Positions 1 through 44,323 of a stretch of 44,323 nucleotides of DNA are shown piece by piece. The first letter of the stretch is position 1. The number at the start of each line of letters is the position of its first letter. The stretch lies in the NCBI GenBank assembly GCA_022616085.1, contig JAKEFN010000096.1, forward strand, positions 1-44,323. The letters are read 5' to 3'. This DNA is from a bacterium. Lineage in GTDB: Bacteria > Patescibacteriota > Minisyncoccia > Phycocordibacterales > JAKEFN01. Under the pieces are notes generated by a model. That model searched no databases, was not told where the DNA came from, and saw nothing but the letters and a program-made list of their open reading frames with translations. Made by a program: the position numbers and the translations under genes.

Positions 1-99
1 AAAGCGAAGAATATTGTTGATATTTTGAGTCTTTCCGAGCCGCCGTTTGCAGCCCGCAACATGAATTCGCAGTAGTCAAGAGTTTTTGAACATGCTCTA
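1..99. repeat. Left copy of a ~99-bp inverted repeat; the partner is the last ~100 bp of the window
   Basis: Bases 1-99 read as the reverse complement of 44224-44321, apart from one apparent 1-nt indel (gagtctttcc vs gagctttcc). The repeat runs off the window edge, so its full length is unknown. Confidence 0.85.
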
Positions 100-5239: not shown

Positions 5240-5356
5240 AAACAAACGCAAAACGCAAAGCGCAAAACTCAAAAAAATAACACAAACCACAAAAGCATCC
5301 GCGTTTTTGGTTTTAAGATGAAGATTTGCGTTTTGAGTTTTGACTTTTGAGTTTGC
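5240..5356. repeat. A-rich imperfect hairpin element of the CAAAACTCAAAA family
   Basis: Intergenic. caaaacgcaaa pairs with tttgcgttttg. The right arm (about 5331-5356) is the reverse complement of a 24-nt string found inside topA (41456-41484). Confidence 0.6.
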
Positions 5357-5357
5357 T

Positions 5358-6395
5358 CTACCGCGCCGCCATATATCGCCCGTCTTTCCCTTTTTTGAAA
5401 TGCCGCCCGTTTTGAAGATTCACGAGAATCGTATTTTCTTTCACATACCGTTCTTTCAAAACGCGGTTGATGAGCTCGTCCTTATCAAGGGGGCCGCTTT
5501 TTTTCAAAATGTCCCGTATGACATCGCGCACGACGCCGCTCGAATATCCCCACTCGGTGAGAACATAAAGCCCGCGCCCGACAAGGACAAAGCGGCTGTC
5601 TTTGATAAGCTCGTTATGGCAGGTCGCCACATGCGCTTTCTTTCCAAAAAGCTCGGTAATCGATTTCGCCACTTCGGTAAAGTGCATGGGGGAGCCGTGC
5701 CGCCTGATGACAAGATACGCATAGTCGCGCATGCCGCGGGCGTTTACATTCGGACTGCTCGCATGCCCCCACTCCCCGAGTTTGTTTCTTCCAATCATCT
5801 TTGAAATAGCGAGCCACCGGCGAAGCGTCTCGTCGTTCTCTTTGTGGCGTTCGTCCACGGAACCGAGGTGTCCGCGAAACATTTTGATGAATTCCTGATC
5901 CGGAATAAGCGTTTCGGCATCCAAAGAAACGGCGAGCCGGCGAAGCGCCGCATAGACGTTTTGCGCAACCGCGTCATCCACGCTCCAACGATGCACGAAT
6001 TCGTCGTCCTCTTTATAACGGGAGAAAGAGTCTCCCAAGACCAGGAGGAAATACAGCTGGTTCTGCGTTTTCTTGCTATCGCTTAAATGAGAGAGAAGAT
6101 CTGCCTCTCCGACCACGGCGCCGAGCGATATAACCGTATCGTGGAGACCCTGAAGGCCGTCGTGCTCGTCTTCAAAGACGTCGGATCGCCGGATGGTATT
6201 GATCGCAAAATTCTCAATCTGGCGCACGCGCTCCCGCGTTATGCCATACTCATCCCCAATGGCCTCAAGCGTCATCTTTTGAGCCTCGTCATCAAGGCCA
6301 AAGCGCCGCACCACAATAGTCTGTGTGCGTTCCGGCAGGACTGAAAGGAATTTCTTTACAACCCCCTCGGGTTTGTTAAAAGGTTTCGTAGACAT
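5358..6395 (-). CDS. DNA-binding protein with an N-terminal sigma-70 region-4-like HTH and a C-terminal HARE-HTH-like domain
   Basis: MTLEAIGDEYGITRERVRQIE is a classic sigma region 4.2 HTH. The C-terminal part (MHFTEVAKSI...RFVLVGRGLYVLTEW) resembles the HARE-HTH/RpoE-delta N-domain. The ATG at M28 is preferred over the TTG at 6476. Confidence 0.8.
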   Translation of the reverse strand: MSTKPFNKPEGVVKKFLSVLPERTQTIVVRRFGLDDEAQKMTLEAIGDEYGITRERVRQIENFAINTIRRSDVFEDEHDGLQGLHDTVISLGAVVGEADLLSHLSDSKKTQNQLYFLLVLGDSFSRYKEDDEFVHRWSVDDAVAQNVYAALRRLAVSLDAETLIPDQEFIKMFRGHLGSVDERHKENDETLRRWLAISKMIGRNKLGEWGHASSPNVNARGMRDYAYLVIRRHGSPMHFTEVAKSITELFGKKAHVATCHNELIKDSRFVLVGRGLYVLTEWGYSSGVVRDVIRDILKKSGPLDKDELINRVLKERYVKENTILVNLQNGRHFKKGKDGRYMAAR

Positions 6396-6503
6396 ACTGA
6401 TTATGAATAAAAAGCTAATAAAACTATAGTTTATAACCTCATAGGAAAATCTAACACTATCCTTCTTTGCCGTCAAGAGATATCGGATATTCCCCCTACA
6501 GTA

Positions 6504-6665
6504 CTTTGAATTACGGAACTAAAGCCGTTACGAGAGTTTTTGGATTCGTGCGAGCCGAAACCGAACAATTTTTCGTTTAATGCCGTAGGTATTGCGAAAA
6601 ATTTTCGGGTTTGGCGTAGCCGAAGCCCAAAAAGTCGCAGTAGGACTTAGTTTCGTAATTCAAAG
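6504..6665. mobile_element. MITE-like palindromic element, copy 1 (162 bp)
   Basis: Terminal inverted repeats are ctttgaattacgGaactaa / ttagtttcgtaattcaaag, with a central ~50 nt identical to copy 2. It is flanked by the direct repeat tacagta (6497-6503 and 6666-6672). The leuS stop codon lies inside its right terminus. Confidence 0.85.
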
Positions 6666-9086
6666 TACAGTAACAATATTGAGGACTTTCCCGGGTATAT
6701 AGATAGTCTTCTTTACTTTTCCCGCGCCAACCCATTTTTTTATGCGTTCATCACGCAGCGCTTCTTCCAAAATCTCATTTTCTCTACTCGAAACTTGGGT
6801 GATAAGCGTGCCCCGCACCTTGCCATTCACCTGTATGGCGATAGTCTGCGCCTCGACGACGATTTTGTCCGCGTCATATAGAGGCCACGGCTCATGAAGA
6901 ATGGGGTGTTCATGGCCGAGCGACTCCCATATCTCTTCCGCGATGTGCGGCGCGAAGGGAGCAAGAAGCATCAAAAACGAAACGAAATAGTCAGTCGGAA
7001 TAGATCCTCGTTTCTCAAGCTCATTGCTAAAAATCATCATCTGCGAAATCGCCGTATTAAATCGCATCGCCTCAATGTCTTCCGAAACTTTTTTTATCGT
7101 CTGATGAAGAAGCGCTTCCAACTCTTTATCCGCCGTATCTGAAACTCCTTTATCAACTTTTTCGCGAAGCCCCCATACTTTTTCCAGAAAACGCCGCGGA
7201 CCAATAAGGCTATCTTCGCTCCAACCGATCGCCTGTTCAAATGGCCCCATAAACATTTCATACAAACGAAGCGTATCAGCTCCGTAGTGATCCACAATAT
7301 CGTCCGGATTGACAACGTTTCCTTTTGATTTGCTCATCTTGACCCCGCCTTCCGCGAGTATGAGTCCGTGTGATGTCCTCTTTGCGTAAGGTTCGGAGAC
7401 CGGCACTGCGCCAATATCAAACAAAAATTTATTCCAAAAACGCGAATAGAGGAGATGAAGCGTTGTGTGTTCCATTCCGCCGTTGTACCAGTCGACAGGC
7501 ATCCAATAATCAAGCTTTTCTTTATCCGCAAGCGCAGTCTTATTTTCTGTATCACAATACCGCAAAAAATACCATGACGATCCGGCCCAGTTCGGCATCA
7601 CATCCGTCTCGCGGCGAGCCGGACCGCCGCATTTCGGGCACGTTGTATTCACCCATTCGGCAATATTCGCAAGCGGCGACTCCCCGGTGTCGGTCGGCTC
7701 ATATTTTTGCACATCAGGGAGCACAACCGGCAGATCCTCTTCGGAAACCGGCGTCCAGCCACATTCCTTGCAAAAAATCATCGGTATGGGTTCTCCCCAA
7801 TAACGCTGGCGCGAAAAAACCCAATCGCGAAGTTTGTATGTCGTTTTTTGTTTTCCGCCGACAAATTCGATAATTTTCTTTTTCGCTTCTTCATTCGCCA
7901 TGCCATCAAATGCTCCTGATCCGACAAGATGCCCCGCCCCCGTGTAGGCATGATCGAGAACCGGACATGTTTTTTCCGGGTAATGAGGACACACAACCAT
8001 CTTTATCGGCAGATCATATTTTTTTGCAAACTCAAAATCCCGCTCGTCATGCGCGGGAACCGCCATGATGGCGCCGGTGCCGACATCGCCCAACACATAA
8101 TTGACAACCCACACCGGAATTTTTTCGCCGTTTGCAGGATTGACAGCAAAGATTCCCGCATCAACTCCTGTTTTTTCTTTTTCCTCGAAATCTCTCGCTC
8201 TGCGCGATGCAAATTCATTCGCCGCATACTTTTTCACCTCTTCGTTTGCCTGCCAGCCGATATCGAGCCATTTTTTTGCAAGATCGGGTGAAACTGCCAG
8301 AAACGTCGCGCCGAAAATAGTATCCGGCCTTGTGGTGAAGATTTTTACAGAATGTTTCCCGTCTTCCTGTCCTGGAATTCCCGAGAGCTTGAAATCAATT
8401 TCTGCACCATCGCTCTTCCCTATCCAATTTCTCTGCTGTGTTTTTATTTTCTCCAAATAATCCACGCTATCCAAATCTTTGAGCAGTCTGTCGGCGTATT
8501 TCGTGATTTTAAGCATCCATTGCTCTTTCTCGCGCTTCTCGGTCGCGCCGCCGCAACGCTCGCATTTCCCATCCACGACTTCTTCGTTCGCGAGGCCGAT
8601 TTTGCACGAAAAGCACCAGTTGATGGCTATTTTTGCCTTATACGCGAGTCCGTGTTTATACAATTGAAGAAAAATCCACTGGGTCCATATATAGTATGCG
8701 GGATCGCTTGTATTTATTTCGCGCGACCAGTCAAACGAGATGCCAAGCGCTTTGAGTTGGCGCCTGAAATTGTCGGTATTTTTTTTGGTAACCTCGCGGG
8801 GATGGATGCCCGTTTTGATGGCGTAGTTTTCGGTCGGAAGTCCGAATGCGTCCCAGCCTATGGGAAAAAGAACGTTATAGCCCTCGGCTCGGCGTTTCCG
8901 CGCTATCACATCCATTGCGGTATAGCTCCTCACGTGTCCGGCATGAATTCCGTCTCCTGATGGGTAGGGAAACTCAATAAGGCAATAATATTTTTTTTCA
9001 TTGCCGTCTTCCGCGCCGAATGAATTATCGCGCTCCCACCGCTCCTGCCACTTTTTTTCAATTTCTTTATGATCGTATTTCCGCAT
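6660..9086 (-). CDS. leuS: Leucyl-tRNA synthetase
   Basis: Class I aaRS with the HIGH-type motif (HAGH) and KMSKS, in typical LeuS architecture. The start at M14 (MRKYDHKEIEKKWQ) is preferred. The last codons and the TGA come from the MITE terminus. Confidence 0.95.
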   Translation of the reverse strand: MRKYDHKEIEKKWQERWERDNSFGAEDGNEKKYYCLIEFPYPSGDGIHAGHVRSYTAMDVIARKRRAEGYNVLFPIGWDAFGLPTENYAIKTGIHPREVTKKNTDNFRRQLKALGISFDWSREINTSDPAYYIWTQWIFLQLYKHGLAYKAKIAINWCFSCKIGLANEEVVDGKCERCGGATEKREKEQWMLKITKYADRLLKDLDSVDYLEKIKTQQRNWIGKSDGAEIDFKLSGIPGQEDGKHSVKIFTTRPDTIFGATFLAVSPDLAKKWLDIGWQANEEVKKYAANEFASRRARDFEEKEKTGVDAGIFAVNPANGEKIPVWVVNYVLGDVGTGAIMAVPAHDERDFEFAKKYDLPIKMVVCPHYPEKTCPVLDHAYTGAGHLVGSGAFDGMANEEAKKKIIEFVGGKQKTTYKLRDWVFSRQRYWGEPIPMIFCKECGWTPVSEEDLPVVLPDVQKYEPTDTGESPLANIAEWVNTTCPKCGGPARRETDVMPNWAGSSWYFLRYCDTENKTALADKEKLDYWMPVDWYNGGMEHTTLHLLYSRFWNKFLFDIGAVPVSEPYAKRTSHGLILAEGGVKMSKSKGNVVNPDDIVDHYGADTLRLYEMFMGPFEQAIGWSEDSLIGPRRFLEKVWGLREKVDKGVSDTADKELEALLHQTIKKVSEDIEAMRFNTAISQMMIFSNELEKRGSIPTDYFVSFLMLLAPFAPHIAEEIWESLGHEHPILHEPWPLYDADKIVVEAQTIAIQVNGKVRGTLITQVSSRENEILEEALRDERIKKWVGAGKVKKTIYIPGKVLNIVTVL

Positions 9087-10903: not shown

Positions 10904-11281
10904 TTAGAGATCATCAGGAGAGAGTCCGGTATGTTTTCCAATACGAGACAACATACGAGGACCAATCTCTTCACGATCATGAAATGCAAATGTCTTTGAA
11001 TTACGAAACTAAATTCGTTACGAGAGTTTTTGGCTTCGAGCGAACCGAACCAGAATAATTTTTCGTTTAATGCCGTAGGTATTGCGAAAAATTTTCGGGT
11101 TTGGCGCAGTCGAAGTCCAAAAGCTCGCAGCAGGATTTAGTTTCGTAATTCAAAGAAATGTATAATCCGGCCAACCGGTTCTGCCGAGTATACGGTGAGA
11201 GCCTTTCTGCCGTTTGATATGCCAGCCAAGGCGAAAAAGTGCGCCCAAAACATGTGATGCTTTAACGGCGCGCCATTCCAT
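10904..11281 (-). pseudogene. hicA: hicA toxin gene interrupted by MITE copy 2
   Basis: The N-fragment 11150..11281 encodes MEWRAVKASHVLGALFRLGWHIKRQKGSHRILGRTGWPDYTF, then L-stop from the MITE. The C-fragment 10904..10993 encodes TFAFHDREEIGPRMLSRIGKHTGLSPDDL-stop. Removing the element plus one aaatgt copy restores a 69-aa HicA-like ORF in frame. Confidence 0.85.
10994..11155. mobile_element. MITE-like palindromic element, copy 2 (162 bp)
   Basis: It has the same termini and central core as copy 1. The 6-bp direct repeat aaatgt lies at 10988-10993 and 11156-11161. It is inserted within hicA. Confidence 0.9.
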
Positions 11282-11513
11282 GTTCCGTAAACAAAGAAGA
11301 AATCTGTATCGGCACCTTCTTATTTTCTATTGCATAAGCAAGCGTGCGAAGCGCTACTGCATATACTCTCCGCTCCGCATCTTTTTTGGTCGCGCCGTAT
11401 GACATCACGCCGAGCAGTTTTGGGATTTCCGCAATCCAGCGGCCGTCTTCTTCGCGGTCAAATTCCACAACATACGACCGTATAATAGCGCCTTTTTCTT
11501 TTTTAATCATCAA
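11262..11513 (-). CDS. hicB: HicB-family antitoxin (UPF0150-like)
   Basis: An 83-aa ORF with the pattern YVVEFDREEDGRWIAEIPKLLGVMSYGATKKDAERR typical of the HicB N-domain. Its stop overlaps the hicA start. Confidence 0.75.
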   Translation of the reverse strand: MMIKKEKGAIIRSYVVEFDREEDGRWIAEIPKLLGVMSYGATKKDAERRVYAVALRTLAYAIENKKVPIQISSLFTEHGMARR

Positions 11514-11610
11514 TAAAGAATACTGAATAGAAAATCAAAAATCAAGCATTCATTCTTGACTTCTGTCATAAAAATGCAATTATCTAATCAGGCAAAAATG
11601 GACAGAACAC

Positions 11611-12771
11611 GTGGAACAAAACAAACGAGTAGACAGTATTTTATTCGTCGGCATAGGCGGCGGCAACGATGTCTTTTCAGGAATTCTTGCGTCACTTTCG
11701 CTCAAACGACTCGGATGGAAATGGGGGCGCGCTGATTTTGCGGGCGTGTTGAGCCCGTTCCACCACCATACCGGCTCACTCGCCGAAATGCAGGGGGTGA
11801 TAAAAATTAACCCCGATTCAAAACGATTCCTCATTAGAAACAACTATCAAAAAGAGATAGTATTTGTAGACAACGCGGTTGCACTGCTTTTCAAAAATAT
11901 TCCGGATTACAAAAAGAGCGGCTTATTCGGTCTATCGCTTGCACATGGTTCACGCGGTTTTTCAAAAACATTGAGCGTACTCTCAAGGATGTACGAAAAA
12001 ATTGTTCTTGTAGATCTCGGGGGCGACTGCTTCTATGGCGGAGTGCGGGATCGGCACGTCTTAAGCCCTATGTTTGACGCGATCGCGCTTCGCGGATTTA
12101 TCGACTCCGGCGCAGAAGGATTTTTGTTCGAAGCCGGACCAGGAACAGACGGGGAGCTTGAGCCGGAAGCGCTCCTTGAATCATTCACGCGTGCGGAAGC
12201 CGAACCGCATCCGATCCAAGCTGATACCATTTCTGAATGGGAAAGTCTCTACAAAAAGTGGATACTTCCGGTACGAGAAGGGCGAACCGTCCCGATGACC
12301 ATACAAGCGTTTCATTCGAATGAAAAAGAGTTACTGCTTCCGTATAGAGCTCGCGCTCATATGGGAGATACCCGATTATACAAAAATTTTAACCAGCGGA
12401 TATATACGGATCTTTGCCGGCAATTCTTCATCGTAGATCCGAAAAAAATAAAAAACCCGTTCATGGTTGAATGTGGAAACCCCCTTGAATGGTTCGAAAA
12501 AACTCAAGCCGTAATACAAAAGACTAATTGCGAGGCGAACCTGGAGTATTTCCTCTATAACGGGCAACTCTGCCAATTCCTCACCCCGTCGCCCCTTCTG
12601 GACGCGTGTGACAGACGCACATTTATCTCGCAGGGGCTCGAAGACTTATGCTCCGGCGCGTGCGACAGAGTATGGATGTTCCCTTCGGATTTGGAATCTA
12701 TTGATCGCGAATGGACCCGAAAAGCCAGGGTTGCGGGAGTGGGCAAATTACTCACTATTGAACGAAATTGA
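11611..12771 (+). CDS. Hypothetical protein, DUF1152-like (tentative)
   Basis: A 386-aa ORF with a GTG start. The motifs GIGGGNDV and VDLGGD recall DUF1152 proteins. The assignment is from memory of the family, not a search. Confidence 0.7.
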   Translation: MEQNKRVDSILFVGIGGGNDVFSGILASLSLKRLGWKWGRADFAGVLSPFHHHTGSLAEMQGVIKINPDSKRFLIRNNYQKEIVFVDNAVALLFKNIPDYKKSGLFGLSLAHGSRGFSKTLSVLSRMYEKIVLVDLGGDCFYGGVRDRHVLSPMFDAIALRGFIDSGAEGFLFEAGPGTDGELEPEALLESFTRAEAEPHPIQADTISEWESLYKKWILPVREGRTVPMTIQAFHSNEKELLLPYRARAHMGDTRLYKNFNQRIYTDLCRQFFIVDPKKIKNPFMVECGNPLEWFEKTQAVIQKTNCEANLEYFLYNGQLCQFLTPSPLLDACDRRTFISQGLEDLCSGACDRVWMFPSDLESIDREWTRKARVAGVGKLLTIERN

Positions 12772-12777
12772 ATAGCT

Positions 12778-12811
12778 AAGGTCTCGCCGGAAATATGCGA
12801 GGCCTTTTTAC
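12778..12811. terminator. Bidirectional hairpin between convergent genes
   Basis: aaggtctcgc-cggaaatat-gcgaggcctt with a T-run on the plus side. Confidence 0.55.
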
Positions 12812-13035
12812 TTTTTCATCATGCCTTGAAGCTCTGTCCGATAGTTTTGCATGACTGCTTGAGTGGCCGCCATTTGGTCTTCGCCTTTGTCCATGCGCGC
12901 TTTTATTTCAAGCGCGATTTTTTGGAAGAATTCAGGGTTATCCGAAACCACCTGGATTATTTTCTCCTGCTCGGACTCGGGCATGCCGGCGAGCTGTTTC
13001 TTCATAATTTTTCGTATAAAAAATTCTTTAAACAT
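12808..13035 (-). CDS. Hypothetical small protein (75 aa)
   Basis: The ORF-track entry is 12808..13128. The start at M32 is preferred because TGTTAAAAT sits 7 nt upstream of that ATG. Confidence 0.6.
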   Translation of the reverse strand: MFKEFFIRKIMKKQLAGMPESEQEKIIQVVSDNPEFFQKIALEIKARMDKGEDQMAATQAVMQNYRTELQGMMKK

Positions 13036-16931: not shown

Positions 16932-16988
16932 TCATTATAAAACATTGTTATCCTACAAAAAATGACTTACAGTTTCAATAGATATAGT

Positions 16989-17070
16989 GCCGACGTGGCG
17001 GAATTGGTATACGCGCATGGCTTAGGACCATGTGCCGCAAGGCTTGTGAGTTCGAGTCTCACCGTCGGCA
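16989..17070 (+). tRNA. tRNA-Leu (anticodon TAG)
   Basis: Hand-folded cloverleaf. The acceptor is GCCGACG/CGTCGGC, and the anticodon stem CATGG/CCATG carries the loop CTTAGGA. It has a long variable arm, T arm GTGAG-TTCGAGT-CTCAC and discriminator A. No CCA is encoded. Confidence 0.9.
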
Positions 17071-17358
17071 TATTTGAACAAAGTGAAAAATGCCGCGGGG
17101 AGACTCGAACGGGAAGGGGGACGGGGAAACACCTGTTTCCACGTGGAGGAAGTTCACGAAACCGTGGGTTTCGTGAGAGCGAGGGACGAGCGACGTTTGA
17201 TTCTCACCGTCGGCATTTTGAATGCAATGAAAAATGCCGCGGAGAGGCTCGAACACGAAAGGGGTCGGGAAAACTGTAGTTTTCCCGTGGAGGAAGTTCA
17301 CGAAACCGAGGGTTTCGTGGGAGCGAGGGACGAGCGACGTTTGATTCTCACCGTCGGC
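17071..17358 (+). repeat. Two tandem 144-bp units, each ending in a degenerate copy of the tRNA-Leu 3' end
   Basis: The units start near 17071 and 17215. Each ends in tttgattctcaccgtcggcat, compared with ttcgagtctcaccgtcggcat in the tRNA. Both units contain two conserved hairpins. Confidence 0.85.
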
Positions 17359-17386
17359 ATATTGAATAGAAACAATACTCTCCCCG

Positions 17387-24244: not shown

Positions 24245-24279
24245 CTTTAACTCTAGACTTACGAAGTCTAGAGTTAAAG
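24245..24279. repeat. REP-like perfect hairpin (16-bp stem)
   Basis: ctttaactctagactt-acg-aagtctagagttaaag. Confidence 0.85.
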
Positions 24280-24291
24280 GCATTAACTACC

Positions 24292-24987
24292 TTACTCTAA
24301 CATCATGACTTTATAATCAGGGCTGTCATCGATACTGAAATTTTTAAGCTCTTCTTTAACGGATTTCCGGTATTTTTCTTCTCCGCCAAAAAAATCAAGA
24401 AAATATCCTCTTTGGGTTACTGCCGGGAAATTTTTCTTTCCAAGGTAGTCCAGATGACTGCTCCAGCGATAATTTTCAAGGAAAGAAAGCGCGTCATTGG
24501 TGTTTTTAATTTTTCGGCCCCGCCAATCATGGCCTGATAAATCAAGCGGATTGAAATGAATATAATAAGGGATAAAAAGAAAATGACGGTCGTTTTCTAT
24601 ATAAAACCTCTTAAATCTCCCCTGGAATAAAGCTCCCACCCTTTGATATTTCTCGTTGAAATATTTTGCATATCCTATATTGAGCTTTGTCATAAATTTT
24701 GTAATACCCCCATCGATAACCGGAGAGAGAAGAAGATGATAGTGGTTTGGCATCAAAGCGAAACAATGAATGTTCACCAAAAGTTCACGCGGTTCTTTTT
24801 TTTGATCATAATATTTCAAACCCCTTTCAAGGTTCTGCGCAAAATAAAAATTATTTGAAGAGGCCTTCGATCGATCGTTGAACTCAAACAAATCGTGAAC
24901 GAAACGAAAATAGTCTTTCTTGTCATTAAAAATTAACCGCTTGTCAACACCGCGGTTGAGAACATGATAAAATTCCATATTTTGCAT
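24292..24987 (-). CDS. IS200-like / REP-associated tyrosine (Y1) transposase
   Basis: YHVLNRG...CFALMPNHYHLLL (HUH motif)...GALFQGRFKRF...YIHFNPL fits the Y1_Tnp (PF01797) pattern. It is 231 aa. Confidence 0.88.
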   Translation of the reverse strand: MQNMEFYHVLNRGVDKRLIFNDKKDYFRFVHDLFEFNDRSKASSNNFYFAQNLERGLKYYDQKKEPRELLVNIHCFALMPNHYHLLLSPVIDGGITKFMTKLNIGYAKYFNEKYQRVGALFQGRFKRFYIENDRHFLFIPYYIHFNPLDLSGHDWRGRKIKNTNDALSFLENYRWSSHLDYLGKKNFPAVTQRGYFLDFFGGEEKYRKSVKEELKNFSIDDSPDYKVMMLE

Positions 24988-25001
24988 TCGTATAATTATA
25001 C

Positions 25002-25026
25002 ACTCTAGACTTCGTAAGTCTAGAGT
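25002..25026. repeat. REP-like hairpin, inverted copy
   Basis: actctagactt-cgt-aagtctagagt. Confidence 0.85.
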
Positions 25027-33638: not shown

Positions 33639-33924
33639 ATCCAATAAGCGCGACCGGCGGCGCGTATAAAATTATACCACAGGTTTCAGAAGTCCCGGAC
33701 GATTAAAAAGTTTATAATAGAGCCCTATGTACGCCGCCTCTGCACCTCCCATACATAATAATAATTATTGGGGGAATGCACCCCACACGGATTAAGCCGG
33801 TCAAAAGATAAATCCCCCTCCGATTCTTCCTCTCCAAGATGTCTCCACACGACCGGCATAAGTTCCCTATAAAACCACCCCCATTCTATGACGGTTTTGC
33901 CGACATCTTTTTATTTTATCTTCC

Positions 33925-34296
33925 TTAATCCTCGTGCTTCACCGCGATAGCAAGAATCTCCTTGGCGATTTTTTCGGCGGCATTGGCACTCTGAGCATCA
34001 ACTAAAATAAGACCCTTGCCGTCAAACGCCTGAAAACGACCAGTCTCCGAGGACGAAATAATAACGGCTTTCCCCGAAAAAAATCCCTCATTTTCGTGGA
34101 AAACCTTTAGCGTATCTTCTTCCAGTACATCATCAATTACGATTGCTCCGAAATCATTATTGTGCGCGTTCAATGTTCCTTTGCGAAGAGAACCAAAATG
34201 CGCAACCGATATCGACTCTGAACTGACGCGCTCCCGTATTTTTTCCACAAATTGAGCGTCCGGCGATACGATAAGTATTTTTTTTGTATCTGTCAT
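33925..34296 (-). CDS. Hypothetical receiver-domain-like protein with a C-terminal 18 aa copied from MurG
   Basis: KKILIVSPD...AIVIDDVLEED resembles a CheY-like fold (tentative). The last 18 aa, AAEKIAKEILAIAVKHED, equal the MurG C-terminus. Confidence 0.65.
   Translation of the reverse strand: MTDTKKILIVSPDAQFVEKIRERVSSESISVAHFGSLRKGTLNAHNNDFGAIVIDDVLEEDTLKVFHENEGFFSGKAVIISSSETGRFQAFDGKGLILVDAQSANAAEKIAKEILAIAVKHED
33927..33983. repeat. 57-bp direct repeat, copy 1 (duplicate of the murG 3' end)
   Basis: aatcctcgtgcttcaccgcgatagcaagaatctccttggcgattttttcggcggcat is identical to 35404-35460. Confidence 0.9.
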
Positions 34297-35385: not shown

Positions 35386-35401
35386 CTTAATTTTTGATTT
35401 C

Positions 35402-36529
35402 TCAATCCTCGTGCTTCACCGCGATAGCAAGAATCTCCTTGGCGATTTTTTCGGCGGCATCGGTGTGCCCGAAGGCGCGCGCGGCTACACTCATTTTTTG
35501 AAACTCTATGGGATTCTTGAATAAGCGGTCTATTTCGGAGATCAAAACATGCGGGGTCAAATTCTCTTCCTCTATCACAATCGCACCCCCCTCCCGCGCA
35601 TAATTATACGCGTTGGTTACCTGATCGCGGCTGATCTCTCTGTGTATCGGTATGATAATGGCCGGTATTCCCCAAACGGCAATCTCAAAAAGCGTCGAAC
35701 CACCGCGCGTGATAATAATATTCGCAATGCCCGCCGCCATGCGAAGAGCCAAGTCGTCTAGATATCCAAACGGCTTATAGCGATGCGCGAATTCGCTTCG
35801 TTCAAGCGCAACCGCCGCCGTGCCTTTAACCTCTTCTATATTTTTTTCGCCGGTCTGATGCACGACTTGATAACGCTTCAAGAGTTCGGGAAGCGTGTCA
35901 AGAATGGCGTCGTTGACGCGCTCCGCTCCTTGCGAACCGCCGAGCACCAGCAAAACGGGGATATCCGCTTCGAGCTTAAGATACTCATGCGCTCCTTCTT
36001 TTATGGGATGCATAACTTCAGATCTTATGGGATTGCCCGTATAGGCGACTTTTTCACTCGGAAAGCGTTTTGCCGCCTCGGGATATGAAACGGCAATCCG
36101 CTTGGCGAATTCGGCCGCCCATAGATTGACGCGCCCGGGAACGGAATCGGATTCGTGAATGAGCACCGGGATTTTGAGAAGCCGCGCGGCGACAAGCGTC
36201 GGGAAGCTCGCGTAGCCTCCCTTCCCCACAACAATATCGGGATACACGTTGTAGAGCTTTACGATCGCTACAAAAATACCGAAAATTGTTTTGAATATAT
36301 CCGGAACATTTTTAAAGGAAAAATATATACGCGCTTTCCCCGCAGGAACCCATTCATATGTTATGTCATGCTTATACAAAAGACCCTCGTCATAGAGCGA
36401 ATCGGAAAAAAAATAAAGATGCACGCCGATGAGGCTTTTTTTGTCGGATTCTTTGTAAAGAGCCTCGGCGATCGCAATAATCGGATAAAAATGACCGCCG
36501 GAGCCGCCGGTTGTAAAAACAATCTTCAT
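35402..36529 (-). CDS. murG: UDP-N-acetylglucosamine--N-acetylmuramyl-(pentapeptide) pyrophosphoryl-undecaprenol GlcNAc transferase
   Basis: MKIVFTTGGSGGHFYPIIAIAEAL and the GT28 architecture. It is 375 aa. Confidence 0.95.
   Translation of the reverse strand: MKIVFTTGGSGGHFYPIIAIAEALYKESDKKSLIGVHLYFFSDSLYDEGLLYKHDITYEWVPAGKARIYFSFKNVPDIFKTIFGIFVAIVKLYNVYPDIVVGKGGYASFPTLVAARLLKIPVLIHESDSVPGRVNLWAAEFAKRIAVSYPEAAKRFPSEKVAYTGNPIRSEVMHPIKEGAHEYLKLEADIPVLLVLGGSQGAERVNDAILDTLPELLKRYQVVHQTGEKNIEEVKGTAAVALERSEFAHRYKPFGYLDDLALRMAAGIANIIITRGGSTLFEIAVWGIPAIIIPIHREISRDQVTNAYNYAREGGAIVIEEENLTPHVLISEIDRLFKNPIEFQKMSVAARAFGHTDAAEKIAKEILAIAVKHED
35404..35460. repeat. 57-bp direct repeat, copy 2 (native murG 3' end)
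   Basis: Identical to 33927-33983. Confidence 0.9.
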
Positions 36530-40127: not shown

Positions 40128-40214
40128 CGCCCAAACTCAAAGTTCAAAGTTCAAAACTCAAAACTAAAACGCACACGCAGTTTTGACATTTGAGATTTGA
40201 ACTTTGAGTTTGGG
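40128..40214. repeat. 87-bp near-perfect hairpin of the CAAAACTCAAAA family
   Basis: The arms gcccaaactcaaagttcaaa...tttgaactttgagtttgggc lie between serS and dprA. Confidence 0.8.
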
Positions 40215-40233
40215 CATCCCGTGCTACAAAGCA

Positions 40234-41154: not shown

Positions 41155-43353
41155 ATGAAGTTGGTTATTGTCGAGTCGCCGTCAAAATCAAAAACGATTT
41201 CGAAATATCTGGGTCCCGGATATACGGTCAAAGCGAGCGTCGGACACGTGCGCGACCTTCCGAAATCAAACAAAAAAGCCATTGATATAGATGGCGGTTT
41301 TGTGCCGCACTATGAAATATCAAAAGGCAAAGAAAAAGTGATTGCCGAACTCGCCTCACTCGCAAAGAAGTCCGATGAAATAATCCTCGCAACCGACCCC
41401 GACCGCGAGGGCGAAGCGATCGCGTGGCACATAGCCGACGCCATAGGCGTCGGAAGTCAAAACTCAAAAGTCAAAACTCAAAAGCTGAAAAGGATTGTTT
41501 TCCATGAAATCACAAAAGATGCGGTGCAAGAAGCGCTTGCGCATCCGCGAGCCATCGATGAAGACCTCCGACGAGCGCAGGAGGCGCGCAGGGTGCTTGA
41601 CCGGCTTGTCGGATACGATCTCTCGGAGCTTATCTGGAAAAAAGTGCGCTACGGGCTCTCTGCCGGAAGGGTTCAGTCTCCCGCGCTTCGGATACTTGTT
41701 GAGCGCGAGCGTGAAATAAAAGCGTTCAAGCCGGAAATCTATTTTGTCATTACTGCAAACGCCAAAAATGAAAAAGGCGAGAATTTTCTCCTCACGTGCG
41801 GAGAACAGCCGAAATCGCGCGGGGAAGCCGATCGGATAGAAAAAATTGCGCGGGAGAATGAATGGCGCATCAAAGACGTGAAAGAATCCGAAGCGAAACG
41901 CGCCCCATACGCGCCGTTTTCGACTTCAACGCTCCAGCAGGCGGCAAGCTCGCGGCTCGGGCTTTCCCCTTCAAACACGATGCGCATCGCCCAAAAACTC
42001 TACGAAGCGGGGCTTATTACCTACATGCGCACAGACAGCGCGAACATCGGAAAAGACGCTCTCTCGAAAATTCATGCGCTCGTCAAAAAAGAATACGGAG
42101 AAAATTTCCTTGAGCCGAGAATATACAAGACAATGGCAAAAAACGCGCAGGAAGCGCACGAAGCGATCCGTCCCGCGGATATTTCACGCATGGAAGCGGG
42201 CGCGGCGGCAGACCAAAAAAAACTCTACCGCCTTATTTGGCGGAGAACGGTCGCGTCGCAGATGGCTGATGCAAAAATGAAAAAAATGAAAATAACGGCG
42301 AACGTATCCGGAGACAGCATTCCCGATTTTTCCGCAACCGGCTCGCGCATCGTCTTTGACGGATGGTTTGCGGCTGATCCCGAATCGCGCGGGAAAGAAA
42401 ATGAGCTTCCAAAAGTTGCTATAAATGAAAAAATCATGCTCATAGACATACAGTCTGAAGAAAAAGCGACCGAACCCCCTCCGCGCTATTCGGAAGCGGG
42501 GCTTGTCAAAGAACTCGAGAAACGCGGCATCGGTCGGCCCTCCACCTACGCTTCGATCATAAAAACAATCCAAGACCGCGGCTACGTGGAGAAAGAAGGC
42601 CGTGCGCTCCGGCCCACCGACACAGGTGAAGTGGTGAGCGGATTTCTTGAGAAGCATTTCGGGCATATCATAAGCGACACATTCACCGCAGAGATGGAGA
42701 ACGAGCTTGATGAGATTTCCCGCGGGGAACGGAAGTATGCCAAAACGCTCAAAGAATTTTACACCCCGTTCCGTAAGCTCGTGGAATCAAAGGAGAATAT
42801 AGAAAAACTCACAAGTCTCGGCGATGCTCCGACAGAATTCAAGTGCCCCGTCTGCGGCGGCGCAATGGAGATGAAGCTTGGCAAAAGCGGCGTTTTTATG
42901 AGCTGTAAGAAATATCCCGAATGTGTCGGAGCACGGACAAGAGAAGGAGAAGCAATGAAAGGCCCGGAAGAAACCGGCGAAGACTGCCCCGAATGCGGAG
43001 GAAAACTGGTGATGCGTGCCGGAAAATATGGATCTTTCGTCTCCTGCGGCAACTATCCCAAATGCAAATTTATTAAAAAAGACGAAAAAGAAGAAGAAAA
43101 AAGAAAAACGGGAGTCGCGTGTCCTCTCTGCAATAAGGGAGAAATGATGGAGCGGCGCGGGCGATTCGGCATCTTTTACGGATGCTCAAATTATCCCGCG
43201 TGCAAGAATGCCATAAAAGCAAAACCGACCGGCAGACTGTGTCCCGATTGCGGAACGCTAATGATGGAAGGAACAAAAACCATTCCCGAGCGCTGTTCCG
43301 ACAAAACCTGCCCGAATCATAATCCGCATAAAAAACATAATTCATCGGCTTGA
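41155..43353 (+). CDS. topA: DNA topoisomerase I
   Basis: A TOPRIM N-terminus (MKLVIVESPSKSKTISKYLG, DPDREGEAIAWH), the catalytic region (ITYMRTDS) and four C-terminal C4 zinc-ribbon repeats. Confidence 0.95.
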   Translation: MKLVIVESPSKSKTISKYLGPGYTVKASVGHVRDLPKSNKKAIDIDGGFVPHYEISKGKEKVIAELASLAKKSDEIILATDPDREGEAIAWHIADAIGVGSQNSKVKTQKLKRIVFHEITKDAVQEALAHPRAIDEDLRRAQEARRVLDRLVGYDLSELIWKKVRYGLSAGRVQSPALRILVEREREIKAFKPEIYFVITANAKNEKGENFLLTCGEQPKSRGEADRIEKIARENEWRIKDVKESEAKRAPYAPFSTSTLQQAASSRLGLSPSNTMRIAQKLYEAGLITYMRTDSANIGKDALSKIHALVKKEYGENFLEPRIYKTMAKNAQEAHEAIRPADISRMEAGAAADQKKLYRLIWRRTVASQMADAKMKKMKITANVSGDSIPDFSATGSRIVFDGWFAADPESRGKENELPKVAINEKIMLIDIQSEEKATEPPPRYSEAGLVKELEKRGIGRPSTYASIIKTIQDRGYVEKEGRALRPTDTGEVVSGFLEKHFGHIISDTFTAEMENELDEISRGERKYAKTLKEFYTPFRKLVESKENIEKLTSLGDAPTEFKCPVCGGAMEMKLGKSGVFMSCKKYPECVGARTREGEAMKGPEETGEDCPECGGKLVMRAGKYGSFVSCGNYPKCKFIKKDEKEEEKRKTGVACPLCNKGEMMERRGRFGIFYGCSNYPACKNAIKAKPTGRLCPDCGTLMMEGTKTIPERCSDKTCPNHNPHKKHNSSA
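41456..41484 (+). repeat. Tandem 14-nt gtcaaaactcaaaa x2 inside topA
   Basis: It encodes SQNSKVKTQK in the TOPRIM loop. A 24-nt stretch is identical to the reverse complement of ~5331-5354. Confidence 0.75.
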
Positions 43354-44223: not shown

Positions 44224-44323
44224 TAGAGCATGTTCAAAAACTCTTGACTACTGCGAATTCATGTTGCGGGCTGCAAACGGCGGCTCGGAAAGCTCAAAAT
44301 ATCAACAATATTCTTCGCTTTCC
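44224..44323. repeat. Right copy of the ~99-bp inverted repeat (partner of 1-99)
   Basis: The reverse complement of 44224-44321 matches 1-99. Its inner end forms a 32-bp perfect palindrome with the preceding 16 nt. Confidence 0.85.

What the first reader, a model, noticed from the sequence alone, without database searches (positions are those of the whole stretch)
6497..6672. New MITE-like family: 162-bp imperfect palindrome with a conserved apical core; copy 1 rewrites the leuS C-terminus
**Family features.** Copies at 6504-6665 and 10994-11155 share the termini ctttgaattacg.aactaa / ttagtttcgtaattcaaag. They also share an identical ~50-nt centre (aatttttcgtttaatgccgtaggtattgcgaaaaattttcgggtttggcg). 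Their inner arms have diverged while remaining largely self-complementary. Copy 1 is flanked by the direct repeat tacagta and copy 2 by aaatgt, so the target-site duplication is 6-7 bp. No cognate transposase is in the window.

**Effect on leuS.** In copy 1 the element terminus supplies the last codon and the TGA of leuS (...NIVTVL-stop). Removing the element predicts an ancestral end ...NIVTVGGISDIS-stop abutting the next gene.

**Position.** Both copies sit at the 3' end of a minus-strand gene, so they may also act as transcriptional or RNA-stability hairpins.
Basis: seen in the sequence. Interest (0 to 1): 0.7.

Follow-up and report, generated by a model that had tools for sequence, protein, structure and literature searches.

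The report
IS982-type MITE in a Patescibacteria genome
The two 162-bp palindromic repeats are real miniature transposons (MITEs) that carry the ends of an IS982-family insertion sequence common in Patescibacteria; one trimmed the tail of leuS and the other split a hicA toxin gene, which is ordinary mobile-element biology.

Summary
There are two 162-bp copies, at 6504-6665 and 10994-11155. They are 90% identical, have 19-21-nt terminal inverted repeats, and are flanked by direct repeats of 7 bp and 6 bp.

The MITE reading is supported and can now be assigned to a family. The first 16 nt, CTTTGAATTACGAAAC, are identical to the ends of about 30 complete 1-kb insertion sequences found in Patescibacteria MAGs and metagenomes. 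These encode IS982-family DDE transposases and make 6-bp target duplications, with TAATTA preferred. The same termini bound many unrelated 122-315-bp MITEs with 6-8-bp duplications.

Removing copy 2 plus one AAATGT rebuilds a 69-aa HicA toxin. It aligns without gaps, at 72-83% identity and the same length, to hundreds of Patescibacteria HicA proteins. Copy 2 therefore interrupts hicA and does not sit at a gene's natural end. Copy 1 replaces only the non-conserved leuS tail.

No transposase with these ends lies in the window. I found no covariation, no Rfam match and no terminator T-run, so a hairpin function is unsupported. The identical 50-nt centre is only weakly significant (p about 0.03, two copies).

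Verdict: a new member of a known kind, of low to moderate interest.

The parts
6504..6665 (.). MITE copy 1 (162 bp).
   Evidence: Repeat family D1 and alignment A1. It is 100% identical at the same site in L064, L066 and L067.
6504..6522 (+). Left terminal inverted repeat of copy 1, CTTTGAATTACGGAACTAA.
   Evidence: (I8). It differs at one position from the 16-nt IS982-clade terminus.
6647..6665 (-). Right terminal inverted repeat of copy 1. It contains the leuS TGA at 6660-6662.
6497..6503 (.). Target-site duplication of copy 1, left copy (TACAGTA).
   Evidence: The 7-bp length lies within the 6-8-bp range seen in related elements.
6666..6672 (.). Target-site duplication of copy 1, right copy (TACAGTA). 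It encodes leuS codons T-V.
6567..6616 (.). 50-nt centre of copy 1, identical to that of copy 2.
   Evidence: P = 0.032.
6660..9086 (-). leuS (808 aa). Its last codon (Leu) and stop codon are supplied by the MITE terminus.
   Evidence: Pfam domains, P0001 and tail translation.
10994..11155 (.). MITE copy 2 (162 bp), inserted inside hicA.
10994..11014 (+). Left terminal inverted repeat of copy 2.
   Evidence: (I9). It matches the IS982-clade terminus at 16 of 16 positions.
11135..11155 (-). Right terminal inverted repeat of copy 2. It supplies Leu-TGA, which truncates hicA.
10988..10993 (.). Target-site duplication of copy 2, left copy (AAATGT).
   Evidence: The 6-bp length is proven by the gapless HicA alignment.
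11156..11161 (.). Target-site duplication of copy 2, right copy (AAATGT). It corresponds to hicA codons T41-F42 on the minus strand.
11057..11106 (.). 50-nt centre of copy 2, identical to that of copy 1.
11150..11281 (-). hicA 5' fragment: residues 1-42, then Leu and a stop codon from the MITE.
   Evidence: It matches Pfam HicA_toxin profile positions 4-27 only, at 25.3 bits, below the cut-off.
10904..10987 (-). hicA 3' remnant: residues 43-69 plus the stop codon.
11262..11513 (-). hicB-like antitoxin gene upstream of hicA, apparently intact.
   Evidence: The Pfam UPF0150 match is weak (18 bits), so the assignment rests on position and size.

Best explanation
[quoted passage not shown] The element carries the terminal inverted repeats of an IS982-family insertion sequence that is widespread in Patescibacteria (CPR).

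**Proposed mechanism**
- An IS982-type DDE transposase, encoded elsewhere in the genome or once present there, binds the 16-nt termini CTTTGAATTACGAAAC.
- It excises or copies the 162-bp element and inserts it at a staggered cut 6-8 bp wide. Repair of the cut produces the flanking duplication.

**What is shown**
- The terminal sequence is identical to that of autonomous IS982 elements.
- The target duplications have the length those elements make.
- A hicA gene is interrupted precisely and is restored by removing the element plus one duplication.

**What is inferred**
- Mobilisation in trans.
- The present or past existence of a transposase in this genome.
- Origin as an inverted dimer of the IS right end. 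Both MITE ends continue ...CTAAAT, like the right end of the full-length ISs, and the whole element is a palindrome.

**Consequences in this genome**
- The last 7 residues of LeuS, which are not conserved, were replaced by one Leu.
- HicA was truncated at residue 42 and is probably inactive.
- In one sister strain, 1.74 kb next to copy 2 is missing. The missing stretch holds the rest of the MITE, the hicA 5' part, hicB and a DUF1152 gene.
For: **Anatomy**
- Two 162-bp copies at 90% identity, with 19-21-nt TIRs and flanking direct repeats of 7 bp and 6 bp.

**Insertion proven at copy 2**
- Excising 10994-11155 plus one AAATGT gives a 69-aa ORF that matches Pfam HicA_toxin positions 4-58 of 58 in one stretch (41.7 bits). 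The truncated form scores 25.3 bits.
- The rebuilt protein matches 732 HicA proteins. The top hits are 69 aa long, 72-83% identical and cover 100% of the query.
- The alignment is gapless across the junction, where F42, A43 and H45 are invariant.

**Parent family**
- The terminus pattern occurs in 63 genome loci, about 45 of them in Patescibacteria MAGs of at least 8 classes. It also occurs in at least 120 metagenome loci.
- Thirty complete elements of 972-1107 bp share the 16-nt TIR and encode 266-279-aa transposases.
- Four of six tested transposases score above the NCBIfam IS982 equivalog cut-off of 130 bits (139, 151, 136 and 138 bits). One scores 129.7 and one 113. The one transposase also run against Pfam matches DDE_Tnp_1_3 at 102.6 bits.
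- Their target duplications are mostly 6-bp TAATTA. MITEs of 122-315 bp with the same ends have 6-8-bp duplications. The tally of exact duplications is 6 bp in 17 cases, 7 bp in 10 and 8 bp in 4.

**Not an artefact**
- Copy 1 is present in three independent assemblies.
Against: - No IS982 transposase is in the 44-kb window (tblastn). The rest of the genome could not be searched, so a cognate enzyme in this organism is not shown.
- Only two copies of this subfamily were found anywhere. Its 21-nt core has no exact match in the metagenome collection, and its interior matches none of the fetched loci.
- No polymorphic empty site was seen among sister strains.
- The two insertion sites, TACAGTA and AAATGT, match the preferred TAATTA target at only 3 of 6 positions.
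- The 7-bp duplication at copy 1 rests on sequence alone and has no independent confirmation.
Confidence: 0.9

Rival explanations
1. The element is a MITE, but its identical 50-nt centre is a selected functional cargo. Candidates are a protein-binding site, an outward promoter or a small RNA. The insertions next to ychF and the sigma-like gene would then be regulatory. This adds to the MITE reading and does not replace it.
For: - All 16 differences between the copies lie outside positions 64-113, with P = 0.032.
- The centre forms the apical stem-loop in all four folds.
- Members of the IS982 family are known to supply outward or fusion promoters (PMC9330008).
Against: - There are only two copies, so the statistic is weak and was chosen after the fact.
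- The core has no match in any other locus or in the metagenome collection.
- There is no Rfam match above noise.
- Promoter-like matches in the region are not above shuffled expectation: 8 found against 6.9 expected.
- A recent common origin or gene conversion explains the identity equally well.
Confidence: 0.1
2. The repeats are host structural RNA or DNA hairpins that act as transcription terminators or mRNA-stabilising stem-loops at gene ends. On this view they are not mobile DNA.
For: - The predicted hairpins are very stable, with z-scores of -7.7 to -12.1.
- Both copies lie downstream of coding sequence on the minus strand.
Against: - Copy 2 splits a conserved hicA ORF, and its removal with one 6-bp repeat restores the ORF exactly.
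- The termini are identical to IS982 ends.
- No T-run follows the stem.
- The mRNA-sense strand folds more weakly (-59 and -67 kcal/mol) than the opposite strand (-76 and -81.5 kcal/mol).
- There are no compensatory changes.
Confidence: 0.03
3. The repeats are REP-like palindromes mobilised by the HUH (Y1, IS200/RAYT-like) transposase encoded in the window at 24292-24987.
For: - A Y1_Tnp gene flanked by two perfect 25-nt hairpins is in the window.
- The 162-bp element is itself a palindrome.
Against: - From established knowledge of the families, HUH Y1 transposases make no target duplication and recognise subterminal hairpins, not terminal inverted repeats.
- The RAYT-flanking hairpin ACTCTAGACTT...AAGTCTAGAGT is unrelated in sequence to the MITE and occurs only twice.
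- The MITE ends match DDE-type IS982 elements.
Confidence: 0.02

Closest known systems
MITECca01, the IS982-derived MITE of the Cardinium endosymbiont cOegib (parent ISCca4) (PMC9769881)
   Same: - It is a short non-coding element bounded by inverted repeats that match those of an IS982-family IS.
- It is thought to be mobilised in trans.
- It was found in a reduced, host-dependent bacterial genome.
   Different: - It is about 240 bp, not 162 bp, and its sequence is unrelated.
- Its host is in Bacteroidota.
- Its parent IS is present, with intact copies, in the same genome. Here no parent is seen in the 44-kb window and the rest of the genome was not available.
- The window element is an almost complete palindrome.
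IS982 family insertion sequences (ISfinder family; NCBIfam NF033520)
   Same: - The MITE shares its 16-nt terminus with 972-1107-bp elements that encode IS982-type DDE transposases and make 6-bp duplications.
- From my own knowledge of ISfinder, the family is about 1 kb, has one ORF and makes 3-9-bp direct repeats.
   Different: - The window element has no transposase.
- The Patescibacteria clade sits near the model's cut-off (113-151 bits against 130), so it is a divergent branch.
- Its terminus CTTTGAATTACGAAAC was not found in the searchable literature.
Classical bacterial MITEs such as Correia elements (Neisseria) and RUP (Streptococcus pneumoniae); recalled from general knowledge, not tested here
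   Same: - They are 100-200-bp elements with TIRs and target duplications.
- They have hairpin potential.
- They insert at gene ends and inside genes, with effects on neighbouring genes.
   Different: - Their parent families differ (IS630-like for RUP).
- Their duplications differ (TA for Correia).
- Their hosts differ.
- Experimental evidence of RNA-level effects exists for Correia elements, but none exists here.
Rickettsia palindromic elements (RPE); recalled from general knowledge
   Same: They are palindromic repeats that insert into protein-coding genes.
   Different: - RPEs are read through in frame and add a peptide segment.
- This element brings a stop codon within 2 codons in one frame (the one used at both window copies) and within 7 codons in a second frame, so it truncates the host ORF (sequence).

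Membership tests
Bacterial MITE | Small (under about 500 bp) and without a transposase or other credible ORF. | tested here: met
   The element is 162 bp, and its longest stop-free stretch is 47 codons. A six-frame translation used as a protein query found nothing at E <= 1.
Bacterial MITE | Terminal inverted repeats. | tested here: met
   The TIRs are 19-21 nt with 0-1 mismatch (I8/I9, 56).
Bacterial MITE | Target-site duplication of fixed or narrow length. | tested here: met
   AAATGT (6 bp) is proven by the HicA reconstruction. TACAGTA (7 bp) flanks copy 1. Related elements have 6-8-bp duplications.
Bacterial MITE | Multiple dispersed copies in one genome. | tested here: inconclusive
   Two copies lie in 44 kb. 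The rest of the genome was not available. The core has no hit in the metagenome collection.
Bacterial MITE | Termini shared with an autonomous IS. | tested here: met
   The terminus matches, at 16 of 16 positions, the ends of 30 complete IS982-type elements from other Patescibacteria or metagenome contigs. A parent in the same genome is not shown.
Bacterial MITE | An empty site, or presence/absence polymorphism. | tested here: met
   An empty site is shown by homology: intact 69-aa HicA orthologues align without gaps across the junction. No polymorphic empty site was found in L064-L067.
IS982 family (for the parent elements that share the termini) | DDE transposase that matches the IS982 profile. 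| tested here: met
   Scores against NCBIfam NF033520 are 129.7, 139.4, 151.1, 135.7, 112.8 and 138.2 bits, against a cut-off of 130. The L005 transposase, the only one run against Pfam, scores 102.6 bits on PF13612.
IS982 family (for the parent elements that share the termini) | About 1 kb long, a single ORF, TIRs, and short direct repeats (3-9 bp by my recollection of ISfinder). | tested here: met
   The elements are 972-1107 bp with one ORF of 266-279 aa and a 16-19-nt TIR. The TSD is mostly 6 bp.
IS982 family (for the window element itself) | Encodes the transposase. | tested here: not met
   tblastn with the L005 transposase finds nothing in the window. The window element is a derivative of the family, not an IS.
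REP / RAYT-mobilised palindromes | No target duplication, association with a Y1 HUH transposase, and a short (about 20-40 nt) hairpin unit. | tested here: not met
   Target duplications are present. The element is 162 bp with TIRs. The hairpins flanking the window's Y1_Tnp gene are unrelated in sequence.
Intrinsic terminator | GC-rich stem followed by a U/T-run. | tested here: not met
   No terminator-like site was called in or at either copy. The flanks after the stem are TACTGTAGGG and ACATTTGCAT.
Any Rfam RNA family | Covariance-model score at or above the gathering threshold. | tested here: not met
   The only hit in the window is the tRNA. The best permissive hits on copy 2 are 18.5-21.3 bits, against thresholds of 60-83.

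The most novel reading that the evidence does not exclude
The invariant 16-nt terminus marks a Patescibacteria-wide IS982 lineage spread by horizontal transfer. At least 58 unrelated internal sequences share that terminus. Its MITEs would then actively remodel these streamlined genomes, for example by inactivating toxins, editing gene tails and causing adjacent deletions. On this reading, the identical 50-nt centre of the window subfamily is a selected functional module (promoter, binding site or small RNA) carried by the MITE, not neutral filler.
Probability: 0.12. Interest if true: 0.5.

Novelty: new member of a known kind. Interest (0 to 1): 0.3.

Why it matters
- MITEs and IS elements are rarely annotated in Patescibacteria (CPR), whose genomes are small and usually described as streamlined.
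- This finding shows that one IS982 clade and its many MITE derivatives are spread across at least eight CPR classes.
- These elements break MAG assemblies. Many hits lie about 120-140 nt from the ends of k141 contigs.
- They also change genes: here a hicA toxin is knocked out and an essential tRNA synthetase receives a new stop codon.
- The practical value is for annotation. The 16-nt terminus is a simple search key for masking these repeats, repairing contig breaks and recognising split genes.
- The finding does not change any concept of how MITEs work.

Tried and rejected
1. Exact-protein look-ups of the window's YchF and of the long LeuS ORF found nothing. The LeuS start was wrong; the cluster route then recovered sister strains.
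2. The core 21-mer TTTAATGCCGTAGGTATTGCG has no hit in metagenome contigs, so this subfamily could not be enlarged.
3. A six-frame translation of both copies, joined with X spacers and used as a protein query to catch ORF calls that overlap other copies, found nothing at E <= 1.
4. The terminus pattern has 17 hits in viral contigs. Most belong to one conserved marine-phage coding sequence (N = G), and none shows the AT-rich flank of an IS end. None is an IS end, so there is no evidence that phages carry the element.
5. phmmer of the rebuilt HicA against PDB chains found no useful hit. Pfam and the large protein search settled the point instead.
6. The covariation test on two copies found at most one two-sided change, so nothing can be said for an RNA structure.
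7. The sister strains were searched for an empty site, but all carry the insertion or a remnant of it.
8. An attC-like or integron reading was considered and dropped. The ends do not fit the RYYYAAC / GTTRRRY cores (read directly from the sequence), and a target duplication is present.
9. Literature searches for the terminus sequence, for IS982 together with CPR names, and for MITEs in CPR found no prior description.
Full report
**1. Observation**

The window holds exactly two copies of a 162-nt sequence, at 6504-6665 and 10994-11155.
- They align without gaps and differ at 16 positions, which is 90% identity.
- Both begin CTTTGAATTACG(G/A)AACTAA and end TTAGTTTCGTAATTCAAAG.
- A search for the 16-nt terminus with up to three mismatches finds only these four ends plus one weak hit. 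Five hits compare with an expected 1.0, and 0 of 100 shuffles reach five.
- Positions 64-113 are identical in the two copies. A simulation gives P = 0.032 for a difference-free run of that length. The 'conserved core' is therefore real but weakly supported.
- Each copy folds into a single long hairpin on either strand, with z-scores of -7.7 to -12.1.
- Copy 1 is flanked by TACAGTA on both sides and copy 2 by AAATGT on both sides.

**2. Proof of insertion**

- The minus-strand ORF 11150-11281 encodes the first 42 residues of a HicA toxin and then runs into the element, which supplies Leu and TGA.
- Deleting 10994-11155 plus one AAATGT gives a 69-aa ORF.
- That ORF matches the whole Pfam HicA_toxin profile (positions 4-58 of 58) in one stretch at 41.7 bits. 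The truncated form matches only positions 4-27 at 25.3 bits, below the cut-off.
- Against 5.8 billion proteins, the rebuilt sequence finds 732 HicA proteins. The best are 69 aa long, 72-83% identical and cover 100% of the query, and many are labelled Patescibacteria, Kaiserbacteria or Paceibacterota.
- The alignment is gapless across the junction, and F42, A43 and H45 on either side of it are invariant.

This is an empty site shown by homology, and it fixes the duplication at 6 bp.

**3. leuS**

- The present LeuS ends ...KVLNIVTVL*, with the stop codon at 6660-6662 inside the element.
- Excision of the element plus one TACAGTA gives ...NIVTVGGISDIS*, with the stop at 6473-6475.
- Homologues at 62-70% identity end at ...(N/S)(I/F)V(V/I/L), or NLI in one, followed by 0 to 4 or 5 more residues.
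- The insertion therefore changed only a non-conserved tail.

**4. What mobilises it**

A scan of one genome per species for CTTTGAATTACGNAACTAA gave 63 loci.
- About 45 are in Patescibacteria MAGs of many classes: Saccharibacteria, Magasanik-, Moran-, Staskawicz-, Portnoy-, Nomura-, Falkow- and Doudnabacteria.
- Many hits lie 120-140 nt from the ends of k141 contigs, as expected for assembly-breaking repeats.
- The window's interior is not found in any of them; only the terminus is shared.

One locus, L005, holds a 1005-bp element with the same ends and a 6-bp duplication (TAACTA). It encodes a 267-aa protein that matches Pfam DDE_Tnp_1_3 at 102.6 bits and the NCBIfam IS982 equivalog at 129.7 bits, against a cut-off of 130.

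- tblastn found more than 30 with full-length homologues of that transposase, at 47-66% identity.
- Thirty complete elements of 972-1107 bp were extracted. All share the 16-nt terminus CTTTGAATTACGAAAC (with 1-2 mismatches in a few ends).
- In most of them the end upstream of the transposase gene continues ...TCC/TCT and carries a -10-like GGTATAAT, and the other end continues ...TAAC.
- Four of five further transposases exceed the IS982 cut-off, at 139, 151, 136 and 138 bits; one scores 113.

Target sites and diversity:
- Full-length elements are mostly flanked by 6-bp TAATTA.
- The base frequencies at -6 to -1 read T-A-A-T-T-A at 59-74% per position.
- Short elements of 122-315 bp with the same ends have 6-, 7- or 8-bp duplications.
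- In all, 117 unique ends fall into 58 clusters of unrelated internal sequence.
- A few MITEs (L186, L105, L098) share the first 39-44 nt with the window element, at 84-87% identity.

The window element is thus one subfamily of a large set of IS982-derived MITEs. The window holds no IS982 transposase.

**5. Mechanism and consequences**

- The best-supported mechanism is mobilisation in trans by an IS982-type DDE transposase that recognises the 16-nt ends and makes a 6-8-bp staggered target cut.
- *Shown:* shared ends, duplication length and a precise gene interruption.
- *Inferred:* mobilisation in trans, the source of the enzyme, and origin as an inverted dimer of the IS right end. The last point rests on both ends reading ...CTAAAT and on the element being a palindrome.
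- *Effect on HicA:* the toxin loses residues 43-69. By general knowledge of the HicA fold, this removes the last strand and helix, so the toxin is probably inactive. hicB upstream looks intact.
- *Sister strain:* in L065 only the last 38 nt of copy 2 remain beside the hicA 3' remnant. They are followed by 39 nt of other sequence and then by window 12770-12868. Window 11032-12769 is therefore missing there. This is either a deletion adjacent to the MITE or a misassembly.
- *Age of copy 1:* copy 1 is identical and in place in L064, L066 and L067, whose flanks are 99.0-99.5% identical to the window. That insertion therefore predates these strains.

**6.

- No terminator-like site is called at either copy, and promoter-like hits are at background level.
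- Rfam gives nothing above noise.
- The strand transcribed with leuS and hicA folds at -59 and -67 kcal/mol, against -76 and -81.5 kcal/mol for the opposite strand. The hairpin is therefore not tuned to those mRNAs.
- Of the 16 differences, at most one pair (46/117) changes on both sides. Most differences make a pair in copy 2 and a mismatch in copy 1. This is decay of a palindrome, not covariation.

**7. Comparison with known elements, and novelty**

- IS982-derived MITEs are described, for example MITECca01 from ISCca4 in Cardinium (PMC9769881).
- IS982 members can supply outward or fusion promoters (PMC9330008).
- I found no paper describing MITEs or IS982 elements in CPR/Patescibacteria, and none containing this terminus sequence. 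That library is incomplete.
- The element meets every testable MITE criterion except genome-wide copy number, which could not be tested.
- It is a new member of a known kind.

**8. Verdict**

- The finding is real and correctly interpreted in its main point. One positional error was corrected and the parent family was identified.
- Interest is low to moderate. It is useful for annotating CPR genomes but is not surprising.

Noticed in passing
window 24250-25026: A 231-aa IS200-like Y1 (HUH) transposase gene lies at 24292-24987 on the minus strand (Pfam Y1_Tnp, 30 bits; motif NHYHLLL). It is flanked by two perfect 25-nt hairpins, ACTCTAGACTT-ACG/CGT-AAGTCTAGAGT, at 24250-24274 and 25002-25026. 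The layout resembles a RAYT/REPtron unit, and only these two hairpins occur in the window.
   Followed up: partly
window 16988-17363: tRNA-Leu (16988-17071) is followed by two 144-nt tandem repeats (17073-17216 and 17217-17360, 87% identical). Each ends in a copy of the last 25 nt of the tRNA (17050-17074, 17195-17219, 17339-17363). This may reflect serial att-site duplications from integration events.
   Followed up: no
window 1-99 and 44224-44321: The two ends of the contig are reverse complements of each other over 99 nt, with a single 1-nt indel. At the right end the repeat starts inside a 15-nt palindrome (TTTTTGAACATGCTC TA GAGCATGTTCAAAAA). This could be an inverted repeat that bounds the contig, or an assembly artefact.
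   Followed up: partly
L065 1-180 (GCA_022616485.1, JAKEEO010000049.1) versus window 11032-12769: A sister strain keeps only the last 38 nt of MITE copy 2 next to the hicA 3' remnant. It lacks 1.74 kb that holds the rest of the MITE, the hicA 5' part, hicB and a DUF1152 gene, and has 39 nt of unrelated sequence in their place. This is a deletion adjacent to the MITE, or a misassembly.
   Followed up: partly
window 5243-5363, 40129-40215, 41451-41496: A second repeat type is present: imperfect palindromes rich in CAAAAC / TCAAAA motifs occur at three places. One is a 37-nt inverted repeat with 89% complementarity at 40129-40215 (D4, I2, I4, I11-I14).
   Followed up: no
window 33910-33986 and 35387-35463: A 77-nt direct repeat, 91% identical, has its copies 1.5 kb apart. 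It may mark the shared ends of neighbouring paralogous genes (D3).
   Followed up: no
L008, L010, L015, L019, L027, L031, L034, L037, L047, L048, L052, L057, L059 (Saccharibacteria MAG CAZOIN01): One Saccharibacteria MAG has at least 13 contigs carrying 132- or 156-bp MITEs with the same termini. Their interior contains GTCATTCCCGCGTAGGCGGGAATCCAG. No full-length IS with the searched pattern was found in that MAG, and many copies sit at contig ends.
   Followed up: partly
L188-L204 (IMG/VR): Most of the viral hits to the terminus pattern (14 of 17) fall in one conserved coding sequence of marine phage contigs (...LDNIALNYGTNDTIEEFGV...). This is a coincidental match and not an IS end.
   Followed up: yes
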